The notes beneath the pieces are model-generated. The model made no database searches and was not told where the DNA came from. It saw only the letters and a program-made list of their open reading frames with translations. A stretch of 64,000 nt of DNA from a virus (lineage: Duplodnaviria > Heunggongvirae > Uroviricota > Caudoviricetes), in the IMG/VR virus record IMGVR_UViG_3300031992_000063, positions 22,390-86,389 of that record; one strand, written 5' to 3'. Below are positions 6,423 through 62,566 of this stretch, in pieces. Both the position numbers and the translations under genes were made by a program. Position 1 is the first letter of the stretch; every line of letters starts with the position of its first letter.

Positions 6423-6452
6423 TTGACAATTCATTAACTAATATGATATAAT
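6423..6452 (+). promoter_or_regulatory. Consensus sigma70/SigA-type promoter (TTGACA - 18 nt - TGaTATAAT)
   Basis: Member of the promoter family repeated about 23 times in this window. Confidence 0.6.
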
Positions 6453-6543
6453 ATAATTATAGTAAAGGGCTGCTGCTTCGCGCCGGTCGCTTTACTGAAC
6501 CTATAAGGGGTGTATAGGCCCCTTATTATTTTAATAAGGGGGG

Positions 6544-6702
6544 ATGACTTATAGCGTAGTTAAAATCAACCGTTATTCAAGGAAGTTTGAGAGTAACGGA
6601 TACGACATATACAACGGACTTATCGGCAACAGAAATGTCTACGTCTTTAATGAAAATAAATACTGGTGGCACTGGAGCAGATTAGACCAACGCAGGAATT
6701 AA
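6544..6702 (+). CDS. Small ORF (52 aa) downstream of a strong RBS; frame 1
   Basis: AAGGGGGG followed by ATG 6544. It overlaps the open 5' end of the frame-2 tail-fibre gene. This could be a real leader gene or an alternative-frame artefact. Confidence 0.25.
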   Translation: MTYSVVKINRYSRKFESNGYDIYNGLIGNRNVYVFNENKYWWHWSRLDQRRN

Positions 6703-9004
6703 TTTTTATAATGGTACAACATTAACTGGACATATGGGTAGTAGTAATACAGTTGTAGGAATTTACGGAGCTGACTCAATAGTTTTACGTCCAGGTGGAG
6801 CATCGGGAAATTCAACCAAAGGATTAAAATTATCTGCATCTAGTTTATTACCATAGCCCGCTAATACAATTGATCTCGGTGGTACTAGCAATTATTGGAA
6901 AACCGCATATTTAAGTGATATATATTTGTCAAGCGCTACCGCCTCATAGGCGATTGTTACGGATGCGGATAAGAAATTAGTAAGTAAACAATATACTCAA
7001 GACAACGTCGCATCCACTCTTGTATCTAGAGACGCAAGTGGTGATTTTAGTGCTCACACTATTACAGCGGCATTAAATGGTAATGCCTCAACTGCAACTA
7101 AACTTGCTGCCGCATGCACTATTTGGGGACATTCTTTTGATGGTAGTGGAGATATAGATGGTAATCCTATATTAAAAAATAGTGGTTCACGCTATCATTA
7201 TATTTATATTAAATAGCATAATACAGATAATACTGTCGGGGCTATAATGTACGATACTGGTAATGCTACCAATGTTACAGCCGGCCATTGGTATTTTTAT
7301 TCATATAGTCCAAAAGCAACAGCCGATAGTGGAACAAGTGGTCATTTTGAACGTTATCATTTACCAGCAGTAGATATAGGACGAACCAGCGATAAAACTT
7401 ATCAAATATTAACTGATAAATCTGTAGTTACAGTAGCATAGGGCGGTACTGGTATAACTACAGCTACATATAAAAATGCTATTATTGCGGGTAATGCCAG
7501 TACTGTGACAAATGCTTTTTAGGCTATTCGCACTAATAATGGAGCTTTTTATGCTACTGCGTAGGATGGAGCACCAAGTTTTGGCACATTACCAGTCGCA
7601 TAGGGCGGCACTGGCGCAACAAGTGCGGGTGCTGCTTATTCCAATATTAAGAATGGTAATTTTTTGTCTTGTAGTACCGCAATAGATGATGCCGCAAAAG
7701 TAGCTAGTTATACTGGTTTTGCACTAAAAACTGGAATAACTATAAGTATTAAATTTACACTATAGAATACCGCTGCAAATCCTACTTTAAATGTTAATGG
7801 TACCGGGGCAAAAGCAATTTATTGTAATGGAACAAGAGTAACCACTAAAGGTTTAGCACAAAATTACATTTATAGATTAATGTATGATGGAACTGATTGG
7901 CAAATTATAAATCCATAGAATAATTTAATTGGAACATGTGATACTGCAGTAGATACCACTGCTAAAACTTTAGATATTCCAGGATTTATACCATATACCG
8001 GAGCAACAGTATGGATTCAATTTACTAATAATAATAGTACTGCCACTCCAACTTTAAATATTAATGGTTATGGAGCGAAAAATATTTATAATGCTGGTGG
8101 ATAGACACGTACTCAATGGTATGTTTTTAATAAGAATCAATATCAAATTTTCATGTATGATGGTACTAAATTTAATATGACTGGTAATACTTTAAGACGT
8201 GAAATCTCTTTAGGAACTACTAGCTCACATGGATATGAAACAATCTTTTTAGGAAATAATATAGTTTCTACATCTCAAAATGGTATGACAGGAGTATTAG
8301 GATTATATAATGCCAAAACAAATGTTTTAAGAATTACAGCTGAAAAAAATAATTCTACTACTAATCGTTATTGGTATTTGCCTGATTTAAATTCTAATCG
8401 TTATTTTGTTACGCGTAATGCAGACGGTAGCCTAGGGAGTGAATCATAGCCAGTATATATTAGCGCTCACGCGGCAGTTAGCCTTTGTACTGCCACCCTT
8501 GATCTCGTCTATCCTGTCGGTTCTATCTACATTTCCACGGTTGCTGACAATCCGGGTGGCGGCGCAGATGCTATTTTTCCGAATACAACATGGGTGGCAT
8601 TTGGAAAAGGTAGAATGCTTATTGGATATGATGATGCACAAGGTAGCACCTTTGGTACTGGTGGCGCAGAAGGCGGAAGTACGACAAAATCGCTTGTTGA
8701 CGTTAATCTTCCTAGCCATTAGCATTTAATTAGTAGTGATAAAGTATCTACTAATAGTACTGGAGCACACCAACATAAAGGTTATAATGACTGGGTAGCA
8801 ACCACAAACGGAGGTTCTGGTCGTTTAACTGGCCAACAGAGCGGTTCTTCAAATACTTCAAATCCTATTACTCAATCTGCTGGCGATCATTCTCATACAG
8901 TTTCTGGTGTAACTGATTTTACTCCAGCAGAAGGCTCTGGTGCAGTTCCCTTTGATGTAATGAACCCTTATGTTGTAGTTTATATGTGGAAACGTACCGT
9001 GTAA
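6650..9004 (+). CDS. Tail fibre protein with a C-terminal HxH needle-type domain; TAG read as sense; N-terminus uncertain
   Basis: Frame 2 is open from 6548 to TAA at 9002-9004 with about 13 in-frame TAG. The first ATG is at 6650. Contains ...VA(TAG)GGTGITTA... and ...VA(TAG)GGTGATSAGAA... tail-fibre motifs. The C-terminal ...GAHQHKG...AGDHSHTVSG... HxH motifs resemble T4 gp37 and lambda Stf tips. Confidence 0.7.
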
Positions 9005-13095: not shown

Positions 13096-13506
13096 ATGAC
13101 TTTAATTGAACTCGCGCGCAAATTGCGCCCATATATAGAAAAAGCGGCTTTATCTTTATCAGATGAAGATGCGCTAGAAGCCGTTGATTTATTTCCCCGC
13201 TGGGATGTTAATCACGGCGAATATGTAAAAGATGATAAAGTGAGATTTGAGGGCGTATTATATAAATGTCTTCAACAGCATTTTCCATAGGCAGGTTGGG
13301 CGCCAACATTGGCACCAAGCCTATGGACGAAAGTACTTATTCCAGATGAAAATGTTATTCCTGAATGGGAGCAGCCCGATAGCACTAATCCTTATATGAA
13401 AGGCGATAAGGTAATGTTTGATGGGAAAGTATATGAAAGTGCTATTGATAATAATATTTGGTCGCCCACTGCTTATCCAGCCGGCTGGGCAGAGGTAAAT
13501 ATTTGA
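13096..13506 (+). CDS. Tandem CBM5/12-type carbohydrate (chitin)-binding domain protein (136 aa), 1 in-frame TAG
   Basis: ORFs 13096..13290 and 13309..13506 share a frame and are joined by TAG. Two repeats of the ChtBD3 pattern: ...VKDDKVRFEGVLYKCLQQHFP(TAG)AGWAPTLAPSLW... and ...YMKGDKVMFDGKVYESA...AGW. Confidence 0.65.
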
Positions 13507-13531
13507 CTTTTTCCTAAATTTATAATATAAT
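13503..13531 (+). promoter_or_regulatory. Consensus promoter (TTGACT-17-TATAAT)
   Basis: Promoter family member. The upstream gene's TGA stop lies inside AATATTTGACT. Confidence 0.55.
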
Positions 13532-13844: not shown

Positions 13845-15132
13845 TTTCTCCGATTAGATTATAAAGATGTATATGCGCGAAGACCCCGAAGCGACTTGTA
13901 GAAATATTACTTTTTAGGTAACGGATGATTGTTGCTTGAATTGTAGCTATTGCTATTAGACACACAAGGGTCATCGTATGATGAGTAAAGAAACCGCGAA
14001 AGAAATAGTAGATTTATTGTTTAAATTGTATGACGAAAACAATGAAGATACTGTCATAAATCATCATACATATGGTATTGTTTTGGACTTTATCGGCGGC
14101 GAACCATTTATGAATATTGATATCATATCTTTCGTTACTGAATACTTTATTCAGGAATGCGTTCGCCGCGACCATATTTGGCTTACTAATTTTCGTGTAT
14201 CTATGAGTTCCAATGGATTATTATATTTTGAGCCAAAAGTCTAGGAATACTTGCGTAAGTATAAAGACTTTGTTAGCTTAAATATAACAATTGATGGACC
14301 GAAAGAAATACATGATACTTGCCGCAAAGATTTTAGCGGCGAGGGTAGTTTTGATAGGTCAATAAAGGCATGGGAACATTGGTATCATGAGGTAAAGGTA
14401 AATATGCCAGATACAAAAGTAACGATTGCGCCCGAAAACCTATCCTAGCTTGAGTCAACATTTGATTTCTTTCTAGCCAATGGCTGTACTACTATTCACG
14501 CAAATCCAATCTTTGAGCATCCTTGGACTATTCGTGAGGCAAGTGAATATTATCATATATTAATTCGCCTTGCGGATAAACTATTAAAGGTTGAAGGCGC
14601 GGAAAGTTCCCTATTCTCCGACTTTAAAGGTAAGCCTTTGCCGCCAGAGGATACTAATAACTATTGCGGCGGCACTGCGGCAATGTTGGCTTTTGACCCA
14701 GATGGCAAAGCATATCCTTGCTTGCGCTATATGGCAAGTTCACTTTCACCAGAACGGGCGCCACTTGTAATTGGAGATACGCATGGAATATATAATACAC
14801 CAGAATACAAAGCAATATATGATGATATGAAGGCGGTAACGCGGCAATCGCAATCTTTACAAGAATGTTTAGATTGCCCTGTCGCATCCGGTTGTGCGTG
14901 GTGCTCGGCAGAAAACTACAATGAATTCGGCACCTATAACAAACGCTCTATTAACATATGTTGGATGCATCGCGCCGAAGCACTTGCGAATGTATATTAT
15001 TGGAATAAGTATTATAAATTACATAATATCAAAGATACATTCCCATTATATCTACCTAGAAATATAGCGGAAAAAATAATTACAAATCACGAATATAATG
15101 AGTTATATATATTATCACACTCTAATATTTGA
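13834..15132 (+). CDS. Radical SAM / SPASM-domain protein (anSME/peptide-maturase-like, about 432 aa) with 5 in-frame TAG
   Basis: ATG 13834 overlaps the upstream stop in an ATGA junction. Frame 1 is continuous through TAG at 13855, 13915, 13957, 14245 and 14446 to TGA at 15130-15132. CxxxCxxC = ...ITF(TAG)VTDDCCLNCSYCY(TAG)THKG. GGEP motif LDFIGGEPFMN. SPASM-like CGGTAAM...YPC and CLDCPVASGCAWCSAEN. Confidence 0.7.
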
Positions 15133-15157
15133 CTTTTGTAGAAATTTCTGCTATAAT
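15129..15157 (+). promoter_or_regulatory. Consensus promoter (TTGACT-17-TATAAT)
   Basis: Promoter family member. The rSAM gene's TGA stop lies inside AATATTTGACT. Confidence 0.55.
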
Positions 15158-15227
15158 ATATACAGAAAGTGGGTAAGGAACCAACTTTCTAAAAAATAAT
15201 TTTCATAACATAAGGAGGTTATGAGGT

Positions 15228-15566
15228 ATGAAGTATTATTCTGAAAAACTTCATAAGGTCTTTGACACCGTCGAAGCTTGTCAGCGTGCGGAGTTTGAAG
15301 AAAAGGAAAAGGAAAATCTTGAAAAAATCCAGAAGGAAAAGGCTCTAAGGGAAGCTAAGGAGCGCAAGGAAAAGGAAGCCGCAGAGCGTAAAGCTATGGC
15401 TGATAAGGTTGAGACTGCGCGCAAAGCTTATCTTGAAGCACAGAAAGCTTATAGGACTGAACTAGAAGCATTCTGCCAGAAGTATGGCACCTATCATTAT
15501 ACAGTGAGTGATGCCGATGAGGTTCCTTCTCTATTTGATGCTTTCAAGTATGCCTTTACTTGGTAA
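15228..15566 (+). CDS. Charged coiled-coil hypothetical protein (112 aa)
   Basis: ORF track entry. RBS AAGGAGG. Confidence 0.55.
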   Translation: MKYYSEKLHKVFDTVEACQRAEFEEKEKENLEKIQKEKALREAKERKEKEAAERKAMADKVETARKAYLEAQKAYRTELEAFCQKYGTYHYTVSDADEVPSLFDAFKYAFTW

Positions 15567-15605
15567 GTAAGGCTTAGGACTGAGCCTTATCAGTCCAACT
15601 TTCTT

Positions 15606-15694
15606 AGCCCCTTAGTTGAATGGCACAACAGCTGACTCTAAATCAGTAAGTGGGATTGACCCCGCGGGTGAGCGTTCGAGTCGCTCAGGGGCCG
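15606..15694 (+). tRNA. Candidate amber-suppressor tRNA, anticodon CUA (reads UAG); isotype undetermined
   Basis: Cloverleaf: AGCCCCT / TA / D stem GTTG-AATGGCA-CAAC / anticodon stem GCTGA, loop CTCTAAA (U33, CUA, A37), TCAGT / 22-nt variable region with GTGGG-ATTGAC-CCCGC helix / T arm GAGCG-TTCGAGT-CGCTC / AGGGGCC / G73. A1-C72 is unpaired. Confidence 0.6.
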
Positions 15695-15781
15695 CGTGGG
15701 AAGCGGACGGCTAGCTACCGAAACGAGATAAGGATGCCCTATCATCCAGCCAAATTTTATTTCTATAGGGAGGAATATAAA

Positions 15782-16450
15782 ATGACGGGATTTATCTATG
15801 TAATTACAAATGATGTAAATGGAAAGTAGTATGTTGGAAAAACTACTGATACTTTAGCCGGACGATTTAGTGACCATTGTAAAGATTCGGTTTTATCTAA
15901 ATGTAAAGGAAGACCTTTATATTATGCTATGAATAAATATGGGAAAGAACATTTTCATATTTCGTAGTTAGAAGAATGTGAACTAGATATTTTACCAGAA
16001 AGAGAATAGTTTTGGATAAAAGAATTAGATACTTATCATAATGGTTATAATGCCACTCTTGGAGGAGAAGGCAAGCAATATTATGATTATAATCTATTCG
16101 TTCAAGATTTTAATAATGGTATGAATATTAAAGAAATTGCTTAGAAATATCATTGTGGTACAGAAACAGTAAGCAAGGCTTTGCGAAAGGCGGGATTAGA
16201 TACTTTTCGCGGAAGTAAATATAATGCTCGTTCAAATAGGATTCCAATATTACAATTTTCGATGGATGATAATTTTTTACAGGAATTTGACTCAATTTGG
16301 ACAGCCGCTAAGTGGATAATGGAAAATCATTTTACCACCTCTACTAATCAAGGTCAAGTATAGAGTAATATTAGCGGAGCAGCGCGATAGATAGGATATA
16401 GAAAATCAGCATATGGATTTAAGTGGCGGCTAAAAGAAGAAGAAAATTAA
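15782..16450 (+). CDS. GIY-YIG homing endonuclease (I-TevI/Seg-like) with 6 in-frame TAG
   Basis: RBS GGGAGG followed by ATG 15782. GFIYVITNDVNGK(TAG)YVGKT...FHIS(TAG)LEECE...ERE(TAG)FWIKELDTYHNGYNATLGG, a C-terminal HTH (KEIA(TAG)KY...) and ...YGFKWRLKEEEN. Frame 2 is continuous to TAA at 16448-16450. Confidence 0.75.
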
Positions 16451-17540: not shown

Positions 17541-17600
17541 TGATTTCCCATAATTTGAACGCTAACGCAATTAGACAAGTAAAATTATGGGATTTTTATT
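17541..17600 (+). terminator. Rho-independent terminator
   Basis: 10-bp stem CCCATAATTT...AAATTATGGG followed by ATTTTTATTTG. Confidence 0.55.
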
Positions 17601-17627
17601 TGACTTTTTCTGAAATTGTAGTATAAT
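17600..17627 (+). promoter_or_regulatory. Consensus promoter (TTGACT-16/17-TATAAT)
   Basis: Promoter family member. Followed by the conserved TATAGAAAGTGAGGGAGAG leader. Confidence 0.55.
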
Positions 17628-17651: not shown

Positions 17652-17819
17652 ATGGAAAGATTTACACTTGAATATGAACTTGATAATGATAGGGTTTCTA
17701 TTGAAAGATATAGAGAACAAGGTGAACCTCTTCGTTATGCAGAATATTGTGAAGCTTTTGTAGCTTTTATGACTGCGATTGGATATCCCCAGATAAAACA
17801 AGTATTTGACAAAGAATGA
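17652..17819 (+). CDS. Small hypothetical protein (55 aa)
   Basis: ATG 6 nt after a GGGAGAGA leader. Ends TGA at 17817-17819. Confidence 0.35.
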   Translation: MERFTLEYELDNDRVSIERYREQGEPLRYAEYCEAFVAFMTAIGYPQIKQVFDKE

Positions 17820-17834
17820 AAATTGAGGTATAAT
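17806..17834 (+). promoter_or_regulatory. Perfect consensus promoter TTGACA-17-TATAAT driving the tRNA array
   Basis: TTGACA at 17806-17811 and TATAAT at 17829-17834, immediately upstream of tRNA-Ile. Confidence 0.6.
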
Positions 17835-19816: not shown

Positions 19817-19844
19817 TTGACTTTCTTACAAATTATGTTATAAT
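19817..19844 (+). promoter_or_regulatory. Consensus promoter (TTGACT-16-TGtTATAAT)
   Basis: Promoter family member, immediately upstream of the interrupted tRNA. Confidence 0.55.
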
Positions 19845-19864: not shown

Positions 19865-20028
19865 GGCCCTATAGCTCAGTTGGTAGAGCATGCGGCTGGT
19901 CAGAATAGCCAAGTAGTAAGGCATACCATCCCAAGAGAATTATTCTCGTAAGAAGGTAATCGCAAGTGCAATTCTTGCTTCTGGCGCCATTAACCGCAGT
20001 GTCGTAGGTTCAAGTCCTACTGGGGCCG
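19865..20028 (+). tRNA. Interrupted tRNA: canonical acceptor, D, T and anticodon stems with an about 91-nt structured insertion in the anticodon loop; anticodon undetermined
   Basis: GGCCCTA / TA / GCTC-AGTTGGTA-GAGC / A / TGCGG [98 nt] CCGCA / GTGTC / GTAGG-TTCAAGT-CCTAC / TGGGGCC / G. The insert contains nested helices GAGAA-TTA-TTCTC and GCAAG-TGCAATT-CTTGC. Confidence 0.5.
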
Positions 20029-21690: not shown

Positions 21691-22330
21691 ATTTAAAAAT
21701 AATGACACTTACAGCAACTTTTTGGAACAAGATTTTCTGTATAAAAATTTTATAAAGGTGTCATGATAGTTTAGACGCTTACAGCAACTATTTAATACAA
21801 TTTGTGCCATATTTTTACAAATAATATTGTGCGTCTAGATTTTTAGCCATTGCGAGGATAGTTGCCCGCAACATCCTACGTTTTATCATATGAAATGGCT
21901 CGCGCGATTGCTGACGGCAGTAGAGCGCGCGTTATAAATATCGGAACTTGCCGTTTCCTTGCCATACGGTGGTAGTTCCGTTCAAGGCAGAAAACCTGCG
22001 GTCCAGCTGGACGCGATGATGGCTAGTTTGGGGTTTTACGCCACGCTTTTAGGAAGCGCAACCCGCTAGAACGAGATTCTAGCACGCCTCTCCCTATCCC
22101 TATACGCCTCTTAACAATGCGCACCACATAGGGCATTCTGTTAGAGCCTTACACGCCTCTTAACAATGCGGACCAAGTAAGGACATTTAGTCTCGATTAG
22201 TAAAACTTGTATACCGGTTACCTCTAAGCTAAGTTACGAGTTATAGGCTTTAATAAATATAGGAGCAATGAGCGGCTACTTTGCTTAATATTCGGCCCGC
22301 TGACGAGCGTCTATGACAAATCCTATATTT
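21691..22330 (+). ncRNA. About 640-nt non-coding region with two pairs of direct repeats
   Basis: AC(A/G)CTTACAGCAACT(T/A)TTT at about 21705 and 21770. ACGCCTCTTAACAATGCG(C/G)ACCA at about 22105 and 22152. GC-rich hairpins such as CGCGCG...CGCGCG. Confidence 0.3.
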
Positions 22331-22860: not shown

Positions 22861-22888
22861 TTGACTTTTATAAAAAATATGTTATAAT
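22861..22888 (+). promoter_or_regulatory. Consensus promoter (TTGACT-16-TGtTATAAT)
   Basis: Promoter family member, upstream of tRNA-Thr. Confidence 0.55.
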
Positions 22889-24244: not shown

Positions 24245-24273
24245 TTTGACAATTACTAAAATTATGTTATAAT
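24245..24273 (+). promoter_or_regulatory. Consensus promoter (TTGACA-17-TGtTATAAT)
   Basis: Promoter family member. Confidence 0.55.
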
Positions 24274-25976: not shown

Positions 25977-26261
25977 ATGAGAGCTACTGCTGAAAAACGC
26001 CATAACGATTGGAAAAAAGCTATCCGTAAACGCCATATTGATAGGATAACAAGTTTTCCTGGCTCAGATGACTTATATGACAACCTCCATCAGTATTCCA
26101 AGAACAAAGTACATTGTTCTTGCCCTATATGCCGCGCGAAAACTAATAATAAAGATGGAAAAGGTTGGGCTCCAGTTAAAAATTGGTCTAGACATGATAA
26201 GCGCCAATTTGAATCAATGGAAAATCAAATACTTGACAATGAAGAGGAAAATGTGATATAA
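25977..26261 (+). CDS. Zinc-ribbon hypothetical protein (94 aa)
   Basis: CSCPICRAK. Confidence 0.45.
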   Translation: MRATAEKRHNDWKKAIRKRHIDRITSFPGSDDLYDNLHQYSKNKVHCSCPICRAKTNNKDGKGWAPVKNWSRHDKRQFESMENQILDNEEENVI

Positions 26262-26275
26262 TAATTATAGTGAAA

Positions 26276-26863: not shown

Positions 26864-27310
26864 ATGAAATTATATACATCATACTGGGCGCAAGTTCGTA
26901 ATTTTCCAACAAACTTAATTGTTCTAAATACAACCATTTGGCCGCCTCGATGGTACAATGTGGGTGGAATAGATAAGCGTGGAGTAATTAGTCTTCATTG
27001 TGAACCATTGCGTCCGGGCCATTCATGTGATGGCTTATGTGATGGGCGTTGCGAACCGCGGCATCCGCAAGACTGCGCTTTTCTGCGCGAATACCGTAAG
27101 CAACTTGATGCCATTGATTTTGATGACTTTATACAGCATCTACTTGATTTATAGGCTCGCTTGCTTGAAGATTTTCCAGACAGAAAAGAATTAGATTTCG
27201 CTTTCATCTTCTTTGAAAAATATGATAATCCGTGTAGTGAGCGATGGGCAGTTCAAGATTGGCTTCGCGCGCACGGAGTTGAAATTGAAGAATGGCATCC
27301 TAATATTTGA
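26864..27310 (+). CDS. Cys-rich hypothetical protein (148 aa), 1 in-frame TAG
   Basis: ORF 26864..27154 continues in frame through TAG at 27152 to TGA at 27308-27310, which is embedded in the next promoter's -35. Confidence 0.5.
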
Positions 27311-27334
27311 CTTTTTGTAAAAATTCTGATATAA
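27306..27334 (+). promoter_or_regulatory. Consensus promoter (TTGACT-17-TGaTATAAT)
   Basis: Promoter family member. Followed by the TATAGAAAGTGAGGGAAAG leader. Confidence 0.55.
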
Positions 27335-27360
27335 TTTTTATAGAAAGTGAGGGAAAGAAC

Positions 27361-28341: not shown

Positions 28342-28372
28342 TCGGCGGCAAGAAATTGCCGCCTCTTTTTTA
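28342..28372 (+). terminator. Rho-independent terminator
   Basis: GGCGGCAAGAAATTGCCGCC followed by TCTTTTTTATTTG. Confidence 0.6.
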
Positions 28373-28400
28373 TTTGACTTTTTAAAAAATTATGATATAA
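28373..28400 (+). promoter_or_regulatory. Consensus promoter (TTGACT-16-TGaTATAAT)
   Basis: Promoter family member. Confidence 0.55.
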
Positions 28401-28426
28401 TTTTTATATAAGAAAGGGGAACAAAT

Positions 28427-28657
28427 ATGAGTAATAAAATTTATGATATTTTTAACCCAAATTCTGATTATAATAAATATGTTATTGAAAAGGTTAATAA
28501 AGAATTTATTGATAATAGAGAATGCTTTGTATGTAAACATTGTATAGATATATCTGATGATAGGAATACTTGTCATTTATGTGAATATACGCATGATTTA
28601 TTACCAAAAGAATTAACATGTTTACTTTGGGAATTGGAGGAAGAAAATGAATCTTAA
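28427..28657 (+). CDS. Cys-rich zinc-finger protein (76 aa)
   Basis: CFVCKHC...CHLCEY. Confidence 0.5.
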   Translation: MSNKIYDIFNPNSDYNKYVIEKVNKEFIDNRECFVCKHCIDISDDRNTCHLCEYTHDLLPKELTCLLWELEEENES

Positions 28658-29459: not shown

Positions 29460-29460
29460 T

Positions 29461-29991: not shown

Positions 29992-30553
29992 TATTTGGCT
30001 TACATCGGATTTACACCTAATGCACTCTAAGTCCTTCCTTTGGGAACCTCGCGGCTTTTCTTCTACGGAAGAAATGTGCGAAGCTATCGTAGAAAGATGG
30101 AATTCGGTTGTTGATAAAGGAGATTTGGTATATAACCTTGGTGATATTGCGCTTTCAGATACAGATGCGGCAATTCCTTATCTTCAGCGGCTTAATGGTT
30201 ATCAGGTATGGCTTAGGGGCAACCACGATACTGATAATCGTGTAAATAAAGTGCTTGACGCTTGCCCCAACATTCATCTTCTTGGCACGCCTGACACTTC
30301 CTATGCTACTGTAATTAAATCGGGTAAGTGGCATTTTTATCTTTCTCACTATCCTACTTATACTTGTAATAATGAGCCTTGGCGCAAGGTAGCAAATCTT
30401 TGCGGCCATAGTCATACGCAGGATAAATGGGCAGATTGGGATAAAATGTGCTACCATGTAGAAATGGACGCGCATAATTGTTATCCAGTAAATCTGGAAG
30501 AAATTAAAAATGACATTTACGAGAAGCGTATTCAAGAGCAGACAAATATTTGA
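29957..30553 (+). CDS. Calcineurin-like metallophosphoesterase (198 aa)
   Basis: DLHLMH, GDIA, GNHD and GHSH motifs. Confidence 0.65.
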   Translation: MNLIERSMKMTNIWLTSDLHLMHSKSFLWEPRGFSSTEEMCEAIVERWNSVVDKGDLVYNLGDIALSDTDAAIPYLQRLNGYQVWLRGNHDTDNRVNKVLDACPNIHLLGTPDTSYATVIKSGKWHFYLSHYPTYTCNNEPWRKVANLCGHSHTQDKWADWDKMCYHVEMDAHNCYPVNLEEIKNDIYEKRIQEQTNI

Positions 30554-30577
30554 CTTCTACTGAAATTATAGTATAAT
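30550..30577 (+). promoter_or_regulatory. Consensus promoter (TTGACT-16-TATAAT)
   Basis: Promoter family member. The phosphoesterase gene's TGA lies inside AATATTTGACT. Confidence 0.55.
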
Positions 30578-32132: not shown

Positions 32133-32145
32133 TTGGAGGATGTAA

Positions 32146-33175: not shown

Positions 33176-33179
33176 TACT

Positions 33180-33208
33180 TGACTATTTTTAATTTTATGT
33201 TATAATTT
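33180..33208 (+). promoter_or_regulatory. Consensus promoter (TTGACT-17-TGtTATAAT)
   Basis: Promoter family member. Confidence 0.55.
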
Positions 33209-34651: not shown

Positions 34652-34673
34652 GTAATTGACTTTTTCTAAAATT
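34645..34673 (+). promoter_or_regulatory. Consensus promoter (TTGACT-17-TGtTATAAT)
   Basis: Promoter family member. Confidence 0.55.
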
Positions 34674-34715
34674 ATGTTATAATATATCTATAAGAAAGGA
34701 AAGGAATGAAAATAA

Positions 34716-37484: not shown

Positions 37485-37511
37485 TTGACTTTTTTTAGAA
37501 CTATGTTATAA
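37484..37511 (+). promoter_or_regulatory. Consensus promoter (TTGACT-16-TGtTATAAT)
   Basis: Promoter family member. Confidence 0.55.
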
Positions 37512-37543
37512 TTAAATTATGAGGTGAAGAAATATGAAACAGG

Positions 37544-38389: not shown

Positions 38390-38415
38390 TTTTAGAACTT
38401 ATTTATGTAGAAGAA

Positions 38416-38447
38416 GGCTGCCGAGAGGCAGTTTTATTTTTTAATTA
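38416..38447 (+). terminator. Rho-independent terminator
   Basis: GCTGCC-GAGA-GGCAGT followed by TTTATTTTTT. Confidence 0.55.
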
Positions 38448-38467
38448 TTTTTAAGAGGAGTGTTAAT

Positions 38468-40426: not shown

Positions 40427-40489
40427 TAATCTCTATCCCCAAAAGGATAGAGTTTATATATAAAATCTCCCCAAAGGAGGTGAACCTCT

Positions 40490-40933: not shown

Positions 40934-40962
40934 TTGACTTTTTTCTTAATTTATTATATAAT
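40934..40962 (+). promoter_or_regulatory. Consensus promoter (TTGACT-17-TATAAT)
   Basis: Promoter family member. The upstream gene ends AAATAATTGACT. Confidence 0.55.
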
Positions 40963-45634: not shown

Positions 45635-45663
45635 TTGACTTTTTAATATGAATATGATATAAT
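45635..45663 (+). promoter_or_regulatory. Consensus promoter (TTGACT-17-TGaTATAAT)
   Basis: Promoter family member. Confidence 0.55.
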
Positions 45664-46572: not shown

Positions 46573-46576
46573 CAAG

Positions 46577-46608
46577 TGGGCGCCATTTTGGCGCCCACTT
46601 TTTTATTT
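46577..46608 (+). terminator. Rho-independent terminator
   Basis: AAGTGGGCGCC-ATTTT-GGCGCCCACTT followed by TTTTTATTTG. Confidence 0.65.
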
Positions 46609-46636
46609 GACTTTTTTCTAAATTTAAGGTATAATA
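46608..46636 (+). promoter_or_regulatory. Consensus promoter (TTGACT-17-TATAAT)
   Basis: Promoter family member. Confidence 0.55.
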
Positions 46637-49794: not shown

Positions 49795-50004
49795 ATGTGC
49801 GGATTTGGTAATAGAACCTGTGGAATATGTGCTAATGCCAATGGTTGCCTTGCTTCCATGAATGACGACTATTTCTGCCTCGCTTCTAAACAAGAAGTAC
49901 AAAAGCGTTTAGAAGAAGGCCACTATGCTGATGATACATTGATTATGAAACAATATTTAGAAATTCCGGATGATTATATTAAATCATGTATGGCATGGGC
50001 ATAA
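49795..50004 (+). CDS. Cys-rich hypothetical protein (69 aa)
   Basis: Internal ATG of ORF 49732..50004, placed right after the upstream stop. MCGFGNRTCGICANANGC. Confidence 0.4.
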   Translation: MCGFGNRTCGICANANGCLASMNDDYFCLASKQEVQKRLEEGHYADDTLIMKQYLEIPDDYIKSCMAWA

Positions 50005-50006
50005 AT

Positions 50007-50040
50007 AGTAGGAGCTCAAACAATTGAGCTCCTATTATTT
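50007..50040 (+). terminator. Rho-independent terminator
   Basis: AGGAGCTC-AAACAATT-GAGCTCCT followed by ATTATTTG. Confidence 0.55.
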
Positions 50041-50066
50041 GACTTTTTCTAAAATTATGTTATAAT
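50038..50066 (+). promoter_or_regulatory. Consensus promoter (TTGACT-17-TGtTATAAT)
   Basis: Promoter family member. Confidence 0.55.
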
Positions 50067-50977: not shown

Positions 50978-51199
50978 ATGACAAGAGATATTATAAATGA
51001 ATTTGAGCTATTTATTTATCAGCAAGGATGGACGCAAACTGACGCGGCAGAGAAAATCGGGTGTTCACAAGAACATTTAAGTAGGATTTTTCGTAGATTA
51101 AGAAATCCATCAGCAAAATTACTAGATAGAATGGAAATATTACTAGAGGAGCAACGATATGGCGAATTACGCAAATCAAAAAAGGATGGATATTCTTAA
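50978..51199 (+). CDS. Helix-turn-helix transcriptional regulator (73 aa)
   Basis: ...WTQTDAAEKIGCSQEHLSRIFRR... (XRE-like). Confidence 0.55.
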   Translation: MTRDIINEFELFIYQQGWTQTDAAEKIGCSQEHLSRIFRRLRNPSAKLLDRMEILLEEQRYGELRKSKKDGYS

Positions 51200-51521
51200 T
51201 GCGGATTTGTTAGAGCATAAGAAAAATACAGAAACGGACGGGTATTATTATCCTATGGATTATAAATATATAGATGCCGCCGCGTCAGAATTGAATGGCA
51301 ATGCCTTTAAGATTTGGCTTTATTTACTCCGATGGCGAAATAAAGGATATGTATTTTTCTCTCCCGCAGCAATTGAACATGCTATGGGTATCAAAAAGTC
51401 TAGTGTCAGCGACTCTGTCGCAGAACTTAAAAGAAAAGGAGTTATAATAGAAGATGCTGAGAGCCCGAATAAATTATATTTTAATGCCGTGCCTGATACA
51501 TGGCGCCAAAAATATGATTAA
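51159..51521 (+). CDS. Replication initiator-like winged-helix protein (120 aa)
   Basis: Winged-helix-type segment. Placed immediately upstream of the iteron array. Confidence 0.4.
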   Translation: MANYANQKRMDILNADLLEHKKNTETDGYYYPMDYKYIDAAASELNGNAFKIWLYLLRWRNKGYVFFSPAAIEHAMGIKKSSVSDSVAELKRKGVIIEDAESPNKLYFNAVPDTWRQKYD

Positions 51522-51524
51522 CGA

Positions 51525-51665
51525 TTTTCGTACCATTCATTCCGAAAATCGTACCATTCACTTTTATTGATACGAAAATCGTACCATTCGCGTCCGAAAA
51601 CCGTACCAATCAGTACGAAAACCGTTCCATTCGTCCGAAAATCGTACCAATGGTCCGAAAAACCT
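51525..51665 (+). repeat. Iteron array: about 6 direct repeats of about 19-21 nt, (C/A)CGAAAA(T/C)CGTACCA(T/A)T(C/G)
   Basis: ccgaaaatcgtaccattca / acgaaaatcgtaccattcg / ccgaaaaccgtaccaatca / acgaaaaccgttccattcg / ccgaaaatcgtaccaatgg / ccgaaaaacc. Confidence 0.6.
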
Positions 51666-51740
51666 GGGAGTAATATTAATATATAATTAATATATAAATA
51701 ATAAAAATAATAATATTTAAATAATGATATGGCGCTGCGC
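51666..51740 (+). other. AT-rich DNA-unwinding element adjacent to the iterons; together a candidate origin of replication
   Basis: taatattaatatataattaatatataaataataaaaataataatatttaaataatgatat. Confidence 0.5.
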
Positions 51741-51891: not shown

Positions 51892-52185
51892 ATGCTAGAA
51901 AAAATTAAAGCATGGCTTATTCATAAATTAGGTGGATATACATATAAATATACAATTGAGCCAAAGGTAATACATTCAACTTATCCAATTAAATTGTGTA
52001 AAACAATAATTACATATAGAGATGATTATCCTTTAACAGAAATTGAACTGGCGCACCAAGCCGCCATACAGATTGCGGATGCTATTATACGGGACCGCCT
52101 CTACGAATATGAAGAAGAAACTGATATGCTCCGTGAAGGAATGCATGTACGCCACTATACAGTTTATATCGCAGCTAAACATTGA
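51892..52185 (+). CDS. Hypothetical protein (97 aa)
   Basis: ORF track entry. A 49-aa Cys-rich ORF, 51757..51906, precedes it. Confidence 0.45.
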   Translation: MLEKIKAWLIHKLGGYTYKYTIEPKVIHSTYPIKLCKTIITYRDDYPLTEIELAHQAAIQIADAIIRDRLYEYEEETDMLREGMHVRHYTVYIAAKH

Positions 52186-52210
52186 CTTTTAATTTAAATT
52201 GAAGTATAAT
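52183..52210 (+). promoter_or_regulatory. Consensus promoter (TTGACT-16-TATAAT)
   Basis: Promoter family member. Confidence 0.55.
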
Positions 52211-54116: not shown

Positions 54117-54264
54117 TTTAGAACTTGAAAAAGACAAAAGATGTTGGCTTTATAAATATGGATGCCCATGTCGTACCGCAGTATGCTGGGGATTACCTGA
54201 CGACGGATGCCCAGTATATGAGTGGTTTAAGCAAGTCATTGAATATCAGAAGCAATTAAGTAAT

Positions 54265-54292
54265 TGACTTTTAATAAAATTATGATATAATA
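54265..54292 (+). promoter_or_regulatory. Consensus promoter (TTGACT-16-TGaTATAAT)
   Basis: Promoter family member. Confidence 0.55.
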
Positions 54293-56758: not shown

Positions 56759-57928
56759 TTGAGAATAATTAAGATGGATAATAAATATTACGTTTACAAA
56801 TATTATATTAATGACCAATTATTATATGTAGGACGAACTAATAACTTTATAGAACGATTTAAACAGCATTTGCGGGAAAATTCAGAATATAATAAAGTAA
56901 CTAGAATTGATATAGCCACTTTTGATTTAGATGGCGATATGATGTTATATGAAAAATATTATATTACGAAATTTCATCCGCCTTTAAATAAGAAGGATAT
57001 GCAATTTTCTAGTCCATCTTTTAAATTACCTGAACCTGAATGGATAAGTTATACTAGAGAAGAATTTGATAATATTTCCTCTCAATATAAAAAAAATAAC
57101 TATGGAAAACTCGTAGAAAACAAAATTAAATTATCAAAAATTATTCTCCCAGATAATACAGTTAAAATTCCTGGTAATATCCCGTTATCTTGGTTTAAAC
57201 AGTTTGATATGAATACACAAGTATTTAATTATAATGAAAAATATAGTATTTATTTTACAAGTGCCTATGATACTGCTACACCAAAAGAACAGAAAAAGAT
57301 GTATAAATGGGATAAAAATGAGATAATTAATTACTGGTGTTTAATAGCAGAAAATAAATTAGATAAAATTCCTTATATTAAAGATTATCCATATGATGCT
57401 CCAACATTAAATTTAACAATTAAAAAAAATAATTCTGACATAATGTATTGTTCTTTAGATTGGTTCAGAATCACTTTGGATAAAAATCAAGGATTTTATT
57501 ATTTTGGGCCATATTTTAAAAATAAAATTATTAGTGAAGATGGTATATTTAATATTGAAAAAGAAATTCAAGAGTATGAAATAATAGAACTATTTCATAC
57601 ACCAACAGTATCAAAAGTTTTAAAAGATGCATTGGGTAATGATGAGATTGAAGTAAAAAAAATTCTTTCTTGGAATATATTATATGTATCGTATAAAAAC
57701 AATATAATAGATACTGCCATTATTAAAATAAATTTCTTATCTACTGAAGATGATGAAACAATATTTGAAAATAATTTATTAATTATTAATCAAGAAGAGA
57801 TTTCAGATTCCGATCATATGATAGCACAAAATTATGCTCCTTGTGGTGTTTTAAGAAAATATAAAAATACTTTTATTCGTGATAAATATTTTGAAAAACT
57901 ATTAATTGACAATTCTCTAAATTTATGA
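56759..57928 (+). CDS. GIY-YIG domain protein (389 aa), very AT-rich
   Basis: YVYKYYINDQLLYVGRTNNFIERFKQH...EKYYITKFHPPLNKKD. Confidence 0.6.
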   Translation: MRIIKMDNKYYVYKYYINDQLLYVGRTNNFIERFKQHLRENSEYNKVTRIDIATFDLDGDMMLYEKYYITKFHPPLNKKDMQFSSPSFKLPEPEWISYTREEFDNISSQYKKNNYGKLVENKIKLSKIILPDNTVKIPGNIPLSWFKQFDMNTQVFNYNEKYSIYFTSAYDTATPKEQKKMYKWDKNEIINYWCLIAENKLDKIPYIKDYPYDAPTLNLTIKKNNSDIMYCSLDWFRITLDKNQGFYYFGPYFKNKIISEDGIFNIEKEIQEYEIIELFHTPTVSKVLKDALGNDEIEVKKILSWNILYVSYKNNIIDTAIIKINFLSTEDDETIFENNLLIINQEEISDSDHMIAQNYAPCGVLRKYKNTFIRDKYFEKLLIDNSLNL

Positions 57929-57934
57929 TATAAT
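57906..57934 (+). promoter_or_regulatory. Consensus promoter (TTGACA-17-TGaTATAAT)
   Basis: Promoter family member. Followed by the ATAGAAAGTGAGAAAG leader. Confidence 0.55.
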
Positions 57935-60039: not shown

Positions 60040-60068
60040 TTGACAATTCTTCAAATTCATGATATAAT
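60040..60068 (+). promoter_or_regulatory. Consensus promoter (TTGACA-17-TGaTATAAT)
   Basis: Promoter family member. Confidence 0.55.
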
Positions 60069-62164: not shown

Positions 62165-62534
62165 AAGATACGTGGAACTGTTTAAGGAGCTCGCCAAGGC
62201 CACTGCCGTATCGGCAGAACAGGTAATGGATTATGATAGAGCTAAGAACGATGAAGAAGGGCTGAAAACCGCACAGACAATGCGCGATGATTATAACGCT
62301 CTTCACGATAAAATTAATGATGGTTCAGAACTTGATAAAGCTGATTTTGCTAAGCTACTAGTTGGCGCAATGATTATTGTAAATCAGATTCAGGACCGTC
62401 TTGCTACTTTACAGAAGGCAATGTCTGGTTATCAGACTGACCTTGTCCCCAAGCTTAATAAAATTATTGAAGCTGAAACTGAGGATGAGGTAAAGAAAAT
62501 CGCAATTGAAGAGTTTAGTATTAAGGAAGATTAA
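62157..62534 (+). CDS. Hypothetical coiled-coil protein (125 aa)
   Basis: ORF track entry. Confidence 0.5.
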   Translation: MDKRYVELFKELAKATAVSAEQVMDYDRAKNDEEGLKTAQTMRDDYNALHDKINDGSELDKADFAKLLVGAMIIVNQIQDRLATLQKAMSGYQTDLVPKLNKIIEAETEDEVKKIAIEEFSIKED

Positions 62535-62537
62535 TAC

Positions 62538-62566
62538 TTGACTTTTTAAGAAATTTATTATATAAT
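62538..62566 (+). promoter_or_regulatory. Consensus promoter (TTGACT-17-TATAAT)
   Basis: Promoter family member. Confidence 0.55.

What the first reader, a model, noticed from the sequence alone, without database searches (positions are those of the whole stretch)
6423..62566. About 23 copies of one near-perfect promoter plus a conserved leader, with upstream stop codons built into the -35
The element (A/T)ATTTGACTTTTT - N11-12 - T(G)nTATAAT recurs about 23 times. Copies lie near 6423, 13503, 15129, 17600, 17806, 19817, 22861, 24245, 27306, 28373, 30550, 33180, 34645, 37484, 40934, 45635, 46608, 50038, 52183, 54265, 57906, 60040 and 62538. Spacing is about 17 nt and the -10 is often extended. 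Several copies are followed by a conserved initial transcribed sequence, TATAGAAAGTGAGGGA(G/A)AG, at about 17631, 27340 and 57940, and a weaker TATRTAAGAAAGG elsewhere. In at least six cases the upstream gene ends ...AAT ATT TGA CTT, so the TGA stop is part of TTGACT and a C-terminal Asn-Ile is dictated by the promoter UP region. This points to a single host sigma-A-dependent regulon with unusually uniform promoter strength. The tRNA array and the suppressor tRNA are both driven by members of this family.
Basis: seen in the sequence. Interest (0 to 1): 0.6.

Follow-up and report, generated by a model that had tools for sequence, protein, structure and literature searches.

The report
Consensus host-type promoters in a rumen phage
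The window comes from a large, uncultured phage that reads TAG as an amino acid. It carries 24 textbook-perfect bacterial promoters, about one every 2 kb on the gene strand, which most likely recruit the host's housekeeping RNA polymerase; this is a clean example of a strategy already known from other large phages.

Summary
All are on the + strand and all lie at gene or tRNA boundaries. Shuffles predict 0.1 such sites. No + strand site has a single hexamer mismatch.

The same family occurs in every relative of useful length: more than 190 distinct copies in about 55 IMG/VR loci. The hexamers stay invariant at orthologous positions while the flanks diverge.

The extra conserved positions are the TRTG "-16 region", an A/T-only stretch 5' of the -35, an AAATT spacer block and an A/T discriminator. 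A short purine-rich leader follows, which is mostly the ribosome-binding site. The extended core also occurs as single promoters in unrelated Clostridia genomes, so this is a host-type sigma-A promoter.

Six upstream genes do stop at the TGA inside TTGAC, but only four end in Asn-Ile. The amber-suppressor tRNA lies about 475 nt downstream of one family member in 4 of 5 genomes, behind a cow-rumen-4 RNA leader.

A test for promoters as preferred recombination points (PeSL-like) was negative. No transcription data exist.

Verdict: a new member of a known kind, comparable to the early promoter arrays of SPO1 and phage K. Interest is moderate to low.

The parts
6423..6452 (+). Promoter copy, TTGACA-18-TATAAT with TGn. 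It precedes a structured leader and a TAG-recoded tail-fibre-like gene.
13503..13531 (+). Promoter copy, spacer 17. The upstream ORF stops at the TGA of TTGACT (ends ..AAT ATT TGA). It is the first promoter after the structural block, and its position is conserved in relatives.
15129..15157 (+). Promoter copy, spacer 17. The upstream radical-SAM ORF stops at the TGA of the -35. It heads the unit cow-rumen-4 leader / 112-aa ORF / suppressor tRNA.
15162..15224 (+). cow-rumen-4 RNA (RF02948), the 5' leader of the transcript predicted from promoter 15129. The loop of its second hairpin carries the ribosome-binding site.
15606..15695 (+). tRNA with anticodon CUA (amber suppressor) and a long variable arm. 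The nearest upstream family promoter is 15129.
17600..17627 (+). Promoter copy, spacer 16, with leader ATAGAAAGTGAGGGAGAG and an ATG 24 nt after the -10.
17806..17834 (+). Promoter copy, spacer 17. tRNA-Ile starts 13 nt after the -10 (tRNA cluster Ile-Gln-Leu).
19817..19844 (+). Promoter copy, spacer 16. A tRNA with an insertion starts 20 nt after the -10, followed by tRNAs Asn, Ala and Asp.
22861..22888 (+). Promoter copy, spacer 16. tRNA-Thr starts 58 nt after the -10.
24246..24273 (+). Promoter copy, spacer 16, heading three small ORFs and then tRNA-Trp and tRNA-Leu.
26233..26262 (+). The upstream ORF stops at the TAA inside TATAAT. tRNA-Pro starts 32 nt after the -10.
27307..27335 (+). Promoter copy, spacer 17. 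The upstream ORF (read through one TAG) stops at the TGA of the -35. Leader is ATAGAAAGTGAGGGAAAG.
28374..28401 (+). Promoter copy, spacer 16. It is directly preceded by terminator-like hairpin 28344-28363, whose T-tail runs into the promoter.
30550..30577 (+). Promoter copy, spacer 16. The upstream metallophosphatase ORF stops at the TGA of the -35.
33179..33206 (+). Promoter copy, spacer 16. The -35 is part of a 35-nt palindrome (33157-33191).
34656..34683 (+). Promoter copy, spacer 16, upstream of an RNA-ligase-like gene. Its 28-nt core is identical to that of 50039.
37485..37512 (+). Promoter copy, spacer 16, directly preceded by terminator-like hairpin 37456-37480.
40934..40962 (+). Promoter copy, spacer 17. 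The upstream ORF's TAA abuts the -35. It heads the operon RNase H / dNMP kinase / DNA ligase / ClpP / PhoH.
45635..45663 (+). Promoter copy, spacer 17, upstream of a GIY-YIG-like gene that contains TAG codons.
46607..46635 (+). Promoter copy, spacer 17, directly preceded by a strong terminator-like hairpin (46574-46600).
50039..50066 (+). Promoter copy, spacer 16, overlapped by terminator-like hairpin 50002-50041.
52182..52210 (+). Promoter copy, spacer 17. The upstream ORF stops at the TGA of the -35 (ends Lys-His).
54264..54291 (+). Promoter copy, spacer 16, upstream of gyrB. The upstream ORF stops at the TGA of the -35 (ends Ser-Asn).
57906..57934 (+). Promoter copy, spacer 17. The upstream GIY-YIG ORF stops at the TGA of TGATATAAT.
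60040..60068 (+). Promoter copy, spacer 17, upstream of gyrA. The upstream ORF's TAA abuts the -35. It is present in about 17 of 29 relatives.
62538..62566 (+). Promoter copy, spacer 17. At the orthologous position the hexamers are invariant in the 19 distinct sequences from the 20 relatives that keep a perfect copy.

Best explanation
The 24 elements are functional promoters for the host's housekeeping (sigma-A / sigma-70-type) RNA polymerase. They belong to a phage whose relatives' contigs reach about 190 kb, that reads TAG as a sense codon, and that most likely infects a Clostridia-class Firmicute.

Anatomy of each element:
- an A/T-only stretch 5' of the -35 (wwTAw)
- a perfect -35 (TTGACw, usually followed by a T-run)
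- a conserved AAATT spacer block running into the Gram-positive TRTG '-16 region'
- a perfect TATAAT
- an A/T discriminator
- in most protein-coding cases, a C-free, purine-rich leader that is essentially the ribosome-binding site. The start codon lies 24-34 nt after the -10 in 13 of 24 copies, which implies a leader of roughly 17-27 nt if transcription starts about 7 nt after the -10.

Inferred function: the elements lie about every 2 kb on the coding strand of the tRNA and DNA-metabolism part of the genome and are rare in the structural block. This gives host polymerase many independent, strong entry points without any phage factor.

Most copies abut or overlap the stop codon of the upstream gene, with no terminator between. 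Transcription from successive promoters would therefore add up. Four or five copies follow a terminator and start insulated units.

Shown here: the sequence pattern, its enrichment, its strand and position, its conservation, and the presence of the same core in host-class genomes. Inferred only: polymerase and sigma identity, transcription start sites, strength and timing.
For: Enrichment and strand bias.

Extended conservation, including TRTG and the A/T discriminator: window; 136 distinct copies in relatives.

Position at gene and tRNA starts with short leaders.

Clade-wide presence on the gene strand: 159 sites against 2 on the opposite strand in 32 gyrA loci.

Purifying selection: hexamers are invariant at the orthologous site after the gyrA-adjacent ORF in 19 distinct sequences, while the flanks diverge. 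The gyrA promoter is kept in genomes whose GyrA is only 62-65% identical.

Host-type nature: the pattern TTGACTTTTNNNAAAATTATGNTATAAT has 25 exact matches in 185,579 species genomes. About 20 of these are in Clostridia-class MAGs, mostly as single copies, in contigs of up to 56% GC, with no tblastx similarity to the window.

Distribution: 0.54 promoters per 10 kb on the structural, TAG-rich side of the tail-fibre-like gene against 4.0 per 10 kb on the other side, over 18 relatives.

Gene content under the promoters is of the early/middle type: gyrase, ligases, RNase H, kinases, tRNAs. The layout and gene content resemble the early region of phage K, which has 9 perfect sites on its gene strand by the same rule.
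Against: There are no transcription data of any kind. The host is unknown.

Only part of the genome is in hand, so a phage-encoded sigma factor or RNA polymerase cannot be excluded.

The near-invariant TA at -3/-2 before the -35 is absent from the 25 bacterial examples. The AAATT spacer block could not be judged in them, because the search pattern required it. RNA polymerase may therefore not be the only reader of the element.

Consensus promoters also occur in heavily TAG-recoded regions, at 1.2 per 10 kb. This includes copy 6423 before a tail-fibre-like gene, so 'early only' is too simple.
Confidence: 0.8

Rival explanations
1. The elements are read by a phage-encoded sigma-70-family factor, or by a phage-modified polymerase, whose specificity resembles the housekeeping consensus. 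They would then be a middle class rather than a host-driven early class.
For: The phage-family-specific positions (TA at -3/-2 of the -35, and the AAATTT spacer block at 82-98% conservation) go beyond the two hexamers. Large Firmicute phages such as SPO1 and phage K do encode their own sigma factors (SPO1 annotation; PMC6445280).
Against: The hexamers, spacing and TRTG are exactly the housekeeping consensus. The extended core occurs as single promoters in unrelated Clostridia genomes. No sigma factor or polymerase gene was found among the 30 window proteins scanned. Known phage sigma factors read clearly different motifs; this last point is from my own knowledge, not tested here.
Confidence: 0.08
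2. The elements are, besides promoters, PeSL-like regulatory cassettes. Their roughly 60 nt of shared sequence would serve as preferred sites of homologous recombination that shuffle gene modules between related phages, and this would contribute to their uniformity.
For: Between the window and the contig of L004/L067, which shares an identical GyrA protein, 98%-identical homology begins within 14 nt of the -35 of the gyrA promoter, and the sequence upstream is unrelated. An 84-nt island of homology coincides with promoter 57906 between non-homologous genes. The gyrA promoter is present or absent according to which gene lies upstream. Four or five copies are terminator-promoter composites like PeSLs. 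PeSL definition: PMC2839356 and PMC4122927.
Against: A direct test found synteny breaks just as often at promoter-less gene junctions (0.68) as at promoter junctions (0.73) across 30 relatives. Only 4-5 of 24 copies have the adjacent stem-loop. Orthologous promoters resemble each other more than paralogous ones (the TTGACAAT subtype at gyrA), which argues against frequent exchange between copies. Any two family members align at 80-86%, so the 84-nt island is not specific.
Confidence: 0.12
3. The extended conservation reflects an overlapping binding site for a phage-encoded regulator, such as a repressor or shut-off protein, that switches the whole promoter set together.
For: TA at -3/-2 before the -35 is present in 23 of 24 window copies and in 76-81% of copies in relatives, but is not seen in the 25 bacterial examples. 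The spacer block AAATTT is as conserved as the hexamers. Small HTH proteins are encoded in the window at 51159-51521 and 62615-62980.
Against: The conserved positions show no dyad symmetry or repeat structure. The A/T stretch can be explained as an UP-like element and as the source of the stop codons used by upstream genes. The AAATT block was part of the pattern that also matched bacterial genomes.
Confidence: 0.1
4. The matches are chance occurrences in A/T-rich DNA.
For: The window is 37% G+C. Loose promoter-like matches (9 of 12 positions) are no more frequent than in shuffles.
Against: There are 18 exact matches against 0.10 expected. All 24 are on one strand, all lie at gene boundaries, and none has one mismatch. 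The sites are conserved in relatives.
Confidence: 0

Closest known systems
Host sigma-A early promoter arrays of large Firmicute myophages (Herelleviridae: Staphylococcus phage K / kayviruses, Bacillus phage SPO1)
   Same: Many near-consensus TTGACA-17-TATAAT promoters lie on the gene strand of an early region that also carries tRNAs and small ORFs. That region shares gene types with this window: RNA ligase, PhoH, RNase H, metallophosphatase, stomatin/SPFH and nucleotide kinase. By the same counting rule, phage K has 9 perfect sites on the gene strand in its first 50 kb. Kayvirus 812 is reported to have 63 putative promoters, with logos for host-sigma early promoters (PMC6445280).
   Different: The set here is all-or-none: 24 perfect sites and no one-mismatch site on the + strand. 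Phage K is graded (11 perfect, 27 one-mismatch) and so is SPO1 (1 perfect, 13 one-mismatch). There is no detectable DNA similarity to any deposited phage, and GyrA is under 40% identical to the best database hits. This phage recodes TAG, and one family member heads the suppressor-tRNA unit.
PeSLs (promoter-early stem-loops) of T4-type phages
   Same: Repeated strong sigma-70-like promoters with an A/T-rich upstream region lie between small variable genes. Some are fused to a terminator stem-loop. The promoter travels with its downstream gene (PMC2839356).
   Different: Only 4-5 of 24 copies have the stem-loop. Synteny breaks are not enriched at these promoters. The host is a Gram-positive-type organism. 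Most copies overlap the stop codon of the upstream gene rather than sitting in an intergenic spacer.
Extended Gram-positive promoter with the -16 region (TRTG) upstream of the -10
   Same: T-A-T-G occupies positions -5 to -2 before TATAAT (92%, 87%, 90% and 69% in 136 copies from relatives), and A/T follows the -10. That TRTG is typical of Bacillus and Gram-positive sigma-A promoters is from my own knowledge (Voskuil and Chambliss 1998; Helmann 1995; Graves and Rabinowitz 1986). I did not read these papers here.
   Different: The additional AAAtT block at -10 to -6 before the -10, and the TA dinucleotide 2-3 nt before the -35, are not part of that described consensus as far as I know.
TAG-recoded gut and rumen phages with suppressor tRNAs (Borges et al., bioRxiv 10.1101/2021.08.26.457843)
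   Same: Structural genes are heavily TAG-recoded, a phage-encoded tRNA(CUA) is present, and most DNA-metabolism genes are TAG-free. The paper predicts Firmicutes hosts for several such clades.
   Different: That paper does not mention promoters at all: 0 occurrences of the word. I did not establish which of its named clades, if any, this phage belongs to.

Membership tests
Housekeeping sigma-70 / sigma-A promoter | -35 hexamer close to TTGACA | tested here: met
   24 of 24 are TTGAC[T/A]
Housekeeping sigma-70 / sigma-A promoter | -10 hexamer close to TATAAT | tested here: met
   24 of 24 are TATAAT
Housekeeping sigma-70 / sigma-A promoter | Spacer of 17 +/- 1 nt | tested here: met
   Window: 16 nt in 12 copies, 17 nt in 10, 18 nt in 2. 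Relatives: 17 nt in 118 of 136.
Housekeeping sigma-70 / sigma-A promoter | Gram-positive extended -10 / TRTG -16 region | tested here: met
   TGn in 16 of 24 copies. TATG is the consensus at -5 to -2.
Housekeeping sigma-70 / sigma-A promoter | Location upstream of genes on the coding strand | tested here: met
   All 24 lie at gene or tRNA starts on the + strand. In the gyrA loci of relatives, 159 are on the gene strand and 2 on the other.
Housekeeping sigma-70 / sigma-A promoter | Transcription start about 7 nt after the -10, and dependence on host sigma-A holoenzyme | not testable with these tools
   No RNA or biochemical data are available.
PeSL (T4-type promoter-early stem-loop cassette) | Strong sigma-70-like promoter with an A/T-rich upstream region | tested here: met
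PeSL (T4-type promoter-early stem-loop cassette) | Adjacent stable stem-loop acting as terminator in the same cassette | tested here: not met
   Present at only 28374, 37485, 46607 and 50039, plus a palindrome at 33179. The other 19 copies abut the upstream coding sequence.
PeSL (T4-type promoter-early stem-loop cassette) | Indel and replacement boundaries between relatives concentrated at the cassettes | tested here: not met
   Break fraction is 0.73 at promoter junctions and 0.68 at other junctions. The test is crude, and small fast-evolving genes may escape tblastx.
PeSL (T4-type promoter-early stem-loop cassette) | Mini-circles formed by recombination between cassettes | not testable with these tools
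   This needs inverse PCR or deep sequencing of infected cultures.
Early (host-polymerase) promoter class of a large lytic phage | Clustered in the non-structural part of the genome | tested here: met
   23 of 24 lie in 13.5-62.6 kb. Over 18 relatives the density is 0.54 against 4.0 per 10 kb on the two sides of the tail-fibre-like gene.
Early (host-polymerase) promoter class of a large lytic phage | Activity immediately after infection, followed by shut-off | not testable with these tools
   No expression time course is available.
Early (host-polymerase) promoter class of a large lytic phage | Distinct middle/late promoters read by a phage factor elsewhere in the genome | not tested
   Only 64 kb of the genome is in hand, together with 22-kb pieces of relatives. 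No second motif was searched for systematically.
cow-rumen-4 RNA (Rfam RF02948), for the leader of promoter 15129 only | Score above the family's gathering threshold with both hairpins | tested here: met
   Window: 63.8 bits against a threshold of 48.5. Four relatives: 55.9-63.1 bits. In every case the match starts just after the -10 of a family promoter.

The most novel reading that the evidence does not exclude
The promoter family may be the trigger of the phage's genetic-code switch. One constitutive host-type member, followed by the orphan cow-rumen-4 RNA leader and a small conserved protein, would drive the amber-suppressor tRNA. Other members sit in front of TAG-rich genes such as the tail-fibre-like gene at 6548-9004.

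On this reading, timing in this phage clade is set largely after transcription, by suppressor-tRNA supply and structured leaders, and not by a cascade of promoter classes. A weaker variant is that the cassettes also act as universal gene ends (stops in all three frames in 18 of 24 copies) and so ease module exchange.
Probability: 0.2. Interest if true: 0.55.

Novelty: new member of a known kind. Interest (0 to 1): 0.3.

Why it matters
The finding supplies a ready promoter model for an uncultured clade of TAG-recoded phages (contigs up to about 190 kb in IMG/VR). It points to a Clostridia-class host, because the phage uses sigma-A-type promoters and strong ribosome-binding sites, which are not Bacteroidetes-type signals.

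It also gives 24 precise predictions of transcription starts that rumen metatranscriptomes or 5'-end sequencing could check.

It places the amber-suppressor tRNA in a conserved unit headed by a host-type promoter and the orphan cow-rumen-4 RNA. That makes the question of when the code switch is turned on directly testable.

As a promoter family in itself, it repeats what is known from SPO1-like and K-like phages.

Tried and rejected
1. Megablast of 20 kb against deposited phages found no match. The phage could not be identified by name.

2. PeSL-like recombination role. HSP ends looked suggestive, but the junction-by-junction synteny test showed no enrichment: 0.73 against 0.68. I kept this only as a minor rival.

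3. 'Promoters only before TAG-free (early) genes'. The first gene after a promoter is usually TAG-free, but so are most genes in this region. Across all loci, TAG-rich bins still hold 1.2 promoters per 10 kb against 2.8-3.7 in TAG-poor bins. The loci are not independent. The result is a depletion, not an exclusion.

4. Three-frame stop design. 18 of 24 copies close all three frames, against a mean of 8.7 in shuffles. The test is biased, because the stop of the upstream gene is there by definition, and TGA and TAA are inherent to the two hexamers. I do not claim design.

5. Recent duplication or gene conversion among copies. Mean identity at non-hexamer positions is only 50% and the best pair reaches 75%. 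Orthologues keep their subtype. This is not a recent spread.

6. HDV-like or theta ribozyme next to the suppressor tRNA. Nothing was found at E <= 1.

7. Literature on cow-rumen-4. No paper in the library names it. The main text of the discovery paper does not discuss it, and no supplement is held.

8. The leaders of 45635 and 30550 fold no better than shuffles.


Full report
OBSERVATION

Every one of the 23 listed positions carries the element. A hexamer scan that allows one mismatch finds 24 perfect sites of TTGAC[T/A]-N16-18-TATAAT. The extra site is at 26233. All 24 are on the + strand. No + strand site has exactly one mismatch, while the - strand has 7 one-mismatch sites, which is the chance level.

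TTGACT-N16-18-TATAAT alone has 18 matches against 0.10 expected from dinucleotide-preserving shuffles. TTGACTTTTT has 11 against 0.42. Loose promoter-like matches (9 of 12 positions) are not enriched, so the signal is a discrete family and not a general A/T effect. A two-block weight matrix trained only on related phages scores the 24 sites at 21.9-44.8 bits. The next best site scores 8.8 bits and the best - strand site 3.5 bits.

ANATOMY

Aligned on the hexamers, further positions are conserved in the window and in 136 distinct copies from relatives:
- A/T only at -6 to -1 before the -35, with T at -3 and A at -2 in 23 of 24 window copies
- a T-run after TTGACT
- AAAtT at -10 to -6 before the -10
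- T-A-T-G at -5 to -2 before the -10, which is the Gram-positive TRTG/-16 region
- A-rich, C/G-free positions after TATAAT
- a purine-rich leader almost without C that ends in AAAGGAG-type ribosome-binding sites

The start codon lies 24-34 nt after the -10 in 13 of 24 cases. The 'conserved initial transcribed sequence' is therefore essentially a minimal 5' UTR made of a ribosome-binding site.

WHAT THE WINDOW IS

All genes run on the + strand. Reading TAG as sense fuses fragmented ORFs into long genes:
- 1-3675 (19 TAG), 3954-6419 (9) and 6548-9004 (14), all tail-fibre-like
- 38468-40426 (17 TAG)
- a PhoH-like gene, a radical-SAM gene and two GIY-YIG genes

Every inferred gene ends in TAA or TGA, but only those two codons were allowed as stops in the gene calling. 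At one aligned position a window TAG corresponds to CAG (Gln) in a relative.

There are 19-21 tRNA genes at 15.6-26.4 kb, including a tRNA with anticodon CUA. Genes from 27 to 64 kb encode gyrase B and A, DNA ligase, RNA ligase, kinase/phosphatase, RNase H, dNMP kinase, ClpP, a nucleoside deoxyribosyltransferase and a permease. Most are TAG-free.

No deposited phage is similar at the DNA level, and GyrA is under 40% identical to the best database hits. IMG/VR holds a whole clade of relatives: GyrA is 62-100% identical and contigs reach 190 kb.

PLACEMENT

Twenty-three of the 24 copies lie between 13.5 and 62.6 kb, about one per 2.1 kb. One copy (6423) lies in the 13.5-kb structural block.

In 18 relatives the density is 0.54 per 10 kb on the structural side of the tail-fibre-like gene and 4.0 per 10 kb on the other side. 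Heavily recoded 2-kb bins hold 1.2 promoters per 10 kb against 2.8-3.7 in TAG-poor bins. The loci are not independent, so this is only indicative.

The stop codon of the upstream gene falls as follows:
- at the TGA of TTGAC in six cases: 13503, 15129, 27307, 30550, 52182 and 54264
- as a TAA ending 1-6 nt before the -35 in nine cases
- inside the spacer or the -10 in three cases

Only four of the six TGA cases end AAT ATT TGA (Asn-Ile).

In relatives, 122 of 198 distinct promoters have the upstream stop inside or within 6 nt of the promoter. Fifty-two use the TGA of the -35, with tails AAT AAT (14), AAT ATT (8) and AAT ACT (6). However, a TGA in TTGACA and a TAA in TATAAT are inherent to any consensus promoter. 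The real feature is that genes are packed right up to the promoter.

Four copies (28374, 37485, 46607 and 50039) are directly preceded by a G+C-rich hairpin whose T-tail runs into the promoter. These start insulated units. The other copies are internal promoters.

CONSERVATION

In 32 gyrA loci of relatives, 159 perfect sites lie on the gene strand and 2 on the other strand.

The promoter upstream of gyrA is present, perfect, in about 17 of 29 relatives. This includes those with only 62-65% GyrA identity. It is absent where a different upstream gene abuts the ribosome-binding site.

At the junction after the gyrA-adjacent ORF, 20 of the 23 relatives examined keep a perfect copy. In their 19 distinct sequences the hexamers are invariant, while the upstream coding sequence and the leader diverge in sequence and length. 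This is purifying selection on the polymerase-contact positions.

HOST-TYPE OR PHAGE-SPECIFIC

An exact scan of one genome per bacterial species with TTGACTTTTNNNAAAATTATGNTATAAT gave 25 matches. My own estimate of the chance expectation is below about 1. About 20 of the matches are in Clostridia-class MAGs (Oscillospiraceae, Ruminococcus, Christensenella, Lachnospiraceae). They are mostly single copies, in contigs of up to 56% G+C. None shows tblastx similarity to the window.

The T-run, the AAATT block and TRTG are therefore features of promoters in that bacterial class. By contrast, the TA before the -35 and the purine leader are not seen in those bacterial examples and are specific to the phage family. 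I could not run a control pattern, because only one genome scan is allowed.

THE tRNAs AND THE SUPPRESSOR

tRNA genes start 13, 20, 58 and 32 nt after the -10 of copies 17806, 19817, 22861 and 26233.

The tRNA(CUA) at 15606 has no promoter of its own. The nearest is 15129, 477 nt upstream. That promoter is followed by:
- a match to the orphan Rfam family cow-rumen-4 at 15162-15224 (63.8 bits against a threshold of 48.5)
- a 112-aa Lys/Glu-rich ORF
- a hairpin without a T-tail

The same order and spacing (472-476 nt) hold in L095, L096 and L118. L097 has the same parts with an insertion. Co-transcription itself is inferred.

CALIBRATION AGAINST KNOWN PHAGES

Counts by the same rule, both strands combined:

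| Sequence | Perfect sites | One-mismatch sites |
|---|---|---|
| SPO1, first 50 kb (includes the host-takeover module) | 1 | 13 |
| Phage K, first 50 kb | 11 (9 on the strand of its early genes) | 27 |
| This window, 64 kb | 24 (all on the + strand) | 7 (all on the - strand) |

The early region of phage K also shares gene types with the window: stomatin/SPFH, RNA ligase, PhoH, RNase H, metallophosphatase, nucleotide kinase and tRNAs. The architecture is thus the known one of large Firmicute phages. What is unusual here is only the all-or-none perfection of the hexamers.

RECOMBINATION-CASSETTE IDEA

T4-type PeSLs are strong sigma-70-like promoters fused to stem-loops that mediate module shuffling (PMC2839356 and PMC4122927).

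Two observations looked similar here. Homology between the window and the L004/L067 contig, whose GyrA protein is identical, begins within 14 nt of the -35 of the gyrA promoter. In addition, an 84-nt island of homology coincides with promoter 57906 between unrelated genes.

However, a junction-by-junction synteny test over 30 relatives gave break fractions of 0.73 at promoter junctions and 0.68 at other junctions. Only 4-5 copies have a stem-loop. Paralogous copies share only 50% identity outside the hexamers. I therefore do not file the elements as PeSLs.

CONCLUSION

The best explanation is a family of host sigma-A-type promoters with short translation leaders. They drive the tRNA and DNA-metabolism part of the genome of a TAG-recoded phage that probably infects a Clostridia-class host (confidence 0.8).

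'Single regulon' and 'uniform strength' remain untested. Copy 6423, which precedes a recoded tail-fibre-like gene behind a conserved two-hairpin, terminator-like leader, shows that the set is not simply 'early'.

Novelty: a new member of a known kind.

Noticed in passing
window 1-64000 (for example 1-3675, 3954-6419, 6548-9004, 38468-40426): The phage reads TAG as a sense codon. Long tail-fibre-like and other genes carry 9-19 in-frame TAGs. Every inferred gene ends in TAA or TGA, though only those two were allowed as stops in the calling. A window TAG aligns with CAG (Gln) in relative L095 at the start of the 6548 gene.
   Followed up: partly
window 15129-15695; L095 10051-10614; L096 14254-14818; L097 14255-15480; L118 12030-12598: The orphan Rfam motif cow-rumen-4 is the 5' leader of a conserved unit: consensus promoter, cow-rumen-4 RNA, 112-aa Lys/Glu-rich ORF, conserved hairpin, amber-suppressor tRNA(CUA). 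Both hairpin loops carry UAAGGA, and the second loop is the ORF's ribosome-binding site. This suggests a regulator of the code-switch operon.
   Followed up: partly
window 51159-51730: Candidate replication origin. Five 16-nt iterons CGAAAAYCGTWCCAWT lie at 51543-51651 (0.28 expected by chance). An extremely A/T-rich stretch follows at 51677-51730. The array sits directly downstream of an HTH_36/DnaD_N-like ORF (51159-51521).
   Followed up: partly
window 6453-6548: The leader of promoter 6423 folds into two hairpins (-33 kcal/mol, z = -2.7). The second is terminator-like and can alternatively pair with the ribosome-binding site. Both hairpins show compensatory changes in L093, L095 and L096. 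The tail-fibre-like gene behind it appears to start with ATA where relatives have ATG.
   Followed up: partly
window 19865-20028: A tRNA gene with a 95-nt insertion in the anticodon loop, starting 20 nt after the -10 of promoter 19817. The nature of the insertion is unknown, and no Rfam match was found.
   Followed up: partly
window 38414-40452: A 652-aa gene with 17 in-frame TAGs in a region of low G+C (28.6%). It is bracketed by terminator-like hairpins on both sides (38414-38435 and 40431-40452) and has no consensus promoter of its own. It looks like an insulated late-type gene inside the early region.
   Followed up: no
window 15734-16450, 45757-46572, 56774-57928: Three GIY-YIG homing-endonuclease-like genes. 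The first two contain 5-6 TAG codons. The third sits in the variable stretch between gyrB and gyrA, which differs in content and length among relatives.
   Followed up: partly
window 22098-22134: A marginal match to abiF RNA (RF03085): 37.9 bits against a threshold of 37.
   Followed up: no
window 33157-33191: A 35-nt near-perfect palindrome in which the -35 of promoter 33179 (TTGACT) is mirrored by AGTCAA upstream. This is unique among the 24 copies.
   Followed up: no
L118 17903-18200; L095 16791-16928: One relative encodes a tmRNA (tag DEYNFALAA) inside its tRNA array. Another carries a cow-rumen-3 RNA (RF03083, 96.7 bits) in its tRNA region.
   Followed up: no
L046 (Lachnospiraceae contig) and L056 (Acutalibacteraceae MAG contig): Two bacterial-genome contigs carry 8-10 consensus promoters on one strand within 8 kb. 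L056 has the same purine leader (ATGTAAGAAGAAAGGGAAGG). They are probably other phages or mobile elements of Clostridia with the same promoter architecture. Neither shows tblastx similarity to the window.
   Followed up: partly
window 28647-38389 compared with phage K 11900-33729 (L120): The set of gene types is shared with the early region of Staphylococcus phage K: metallophosphatases, AAA kinase, RNA ligase, SPFH/stomatin, RNase H, PhoH and nucleotide kinase. This hints at a distant Herelleviridae-like organisation.
   Followed up: no
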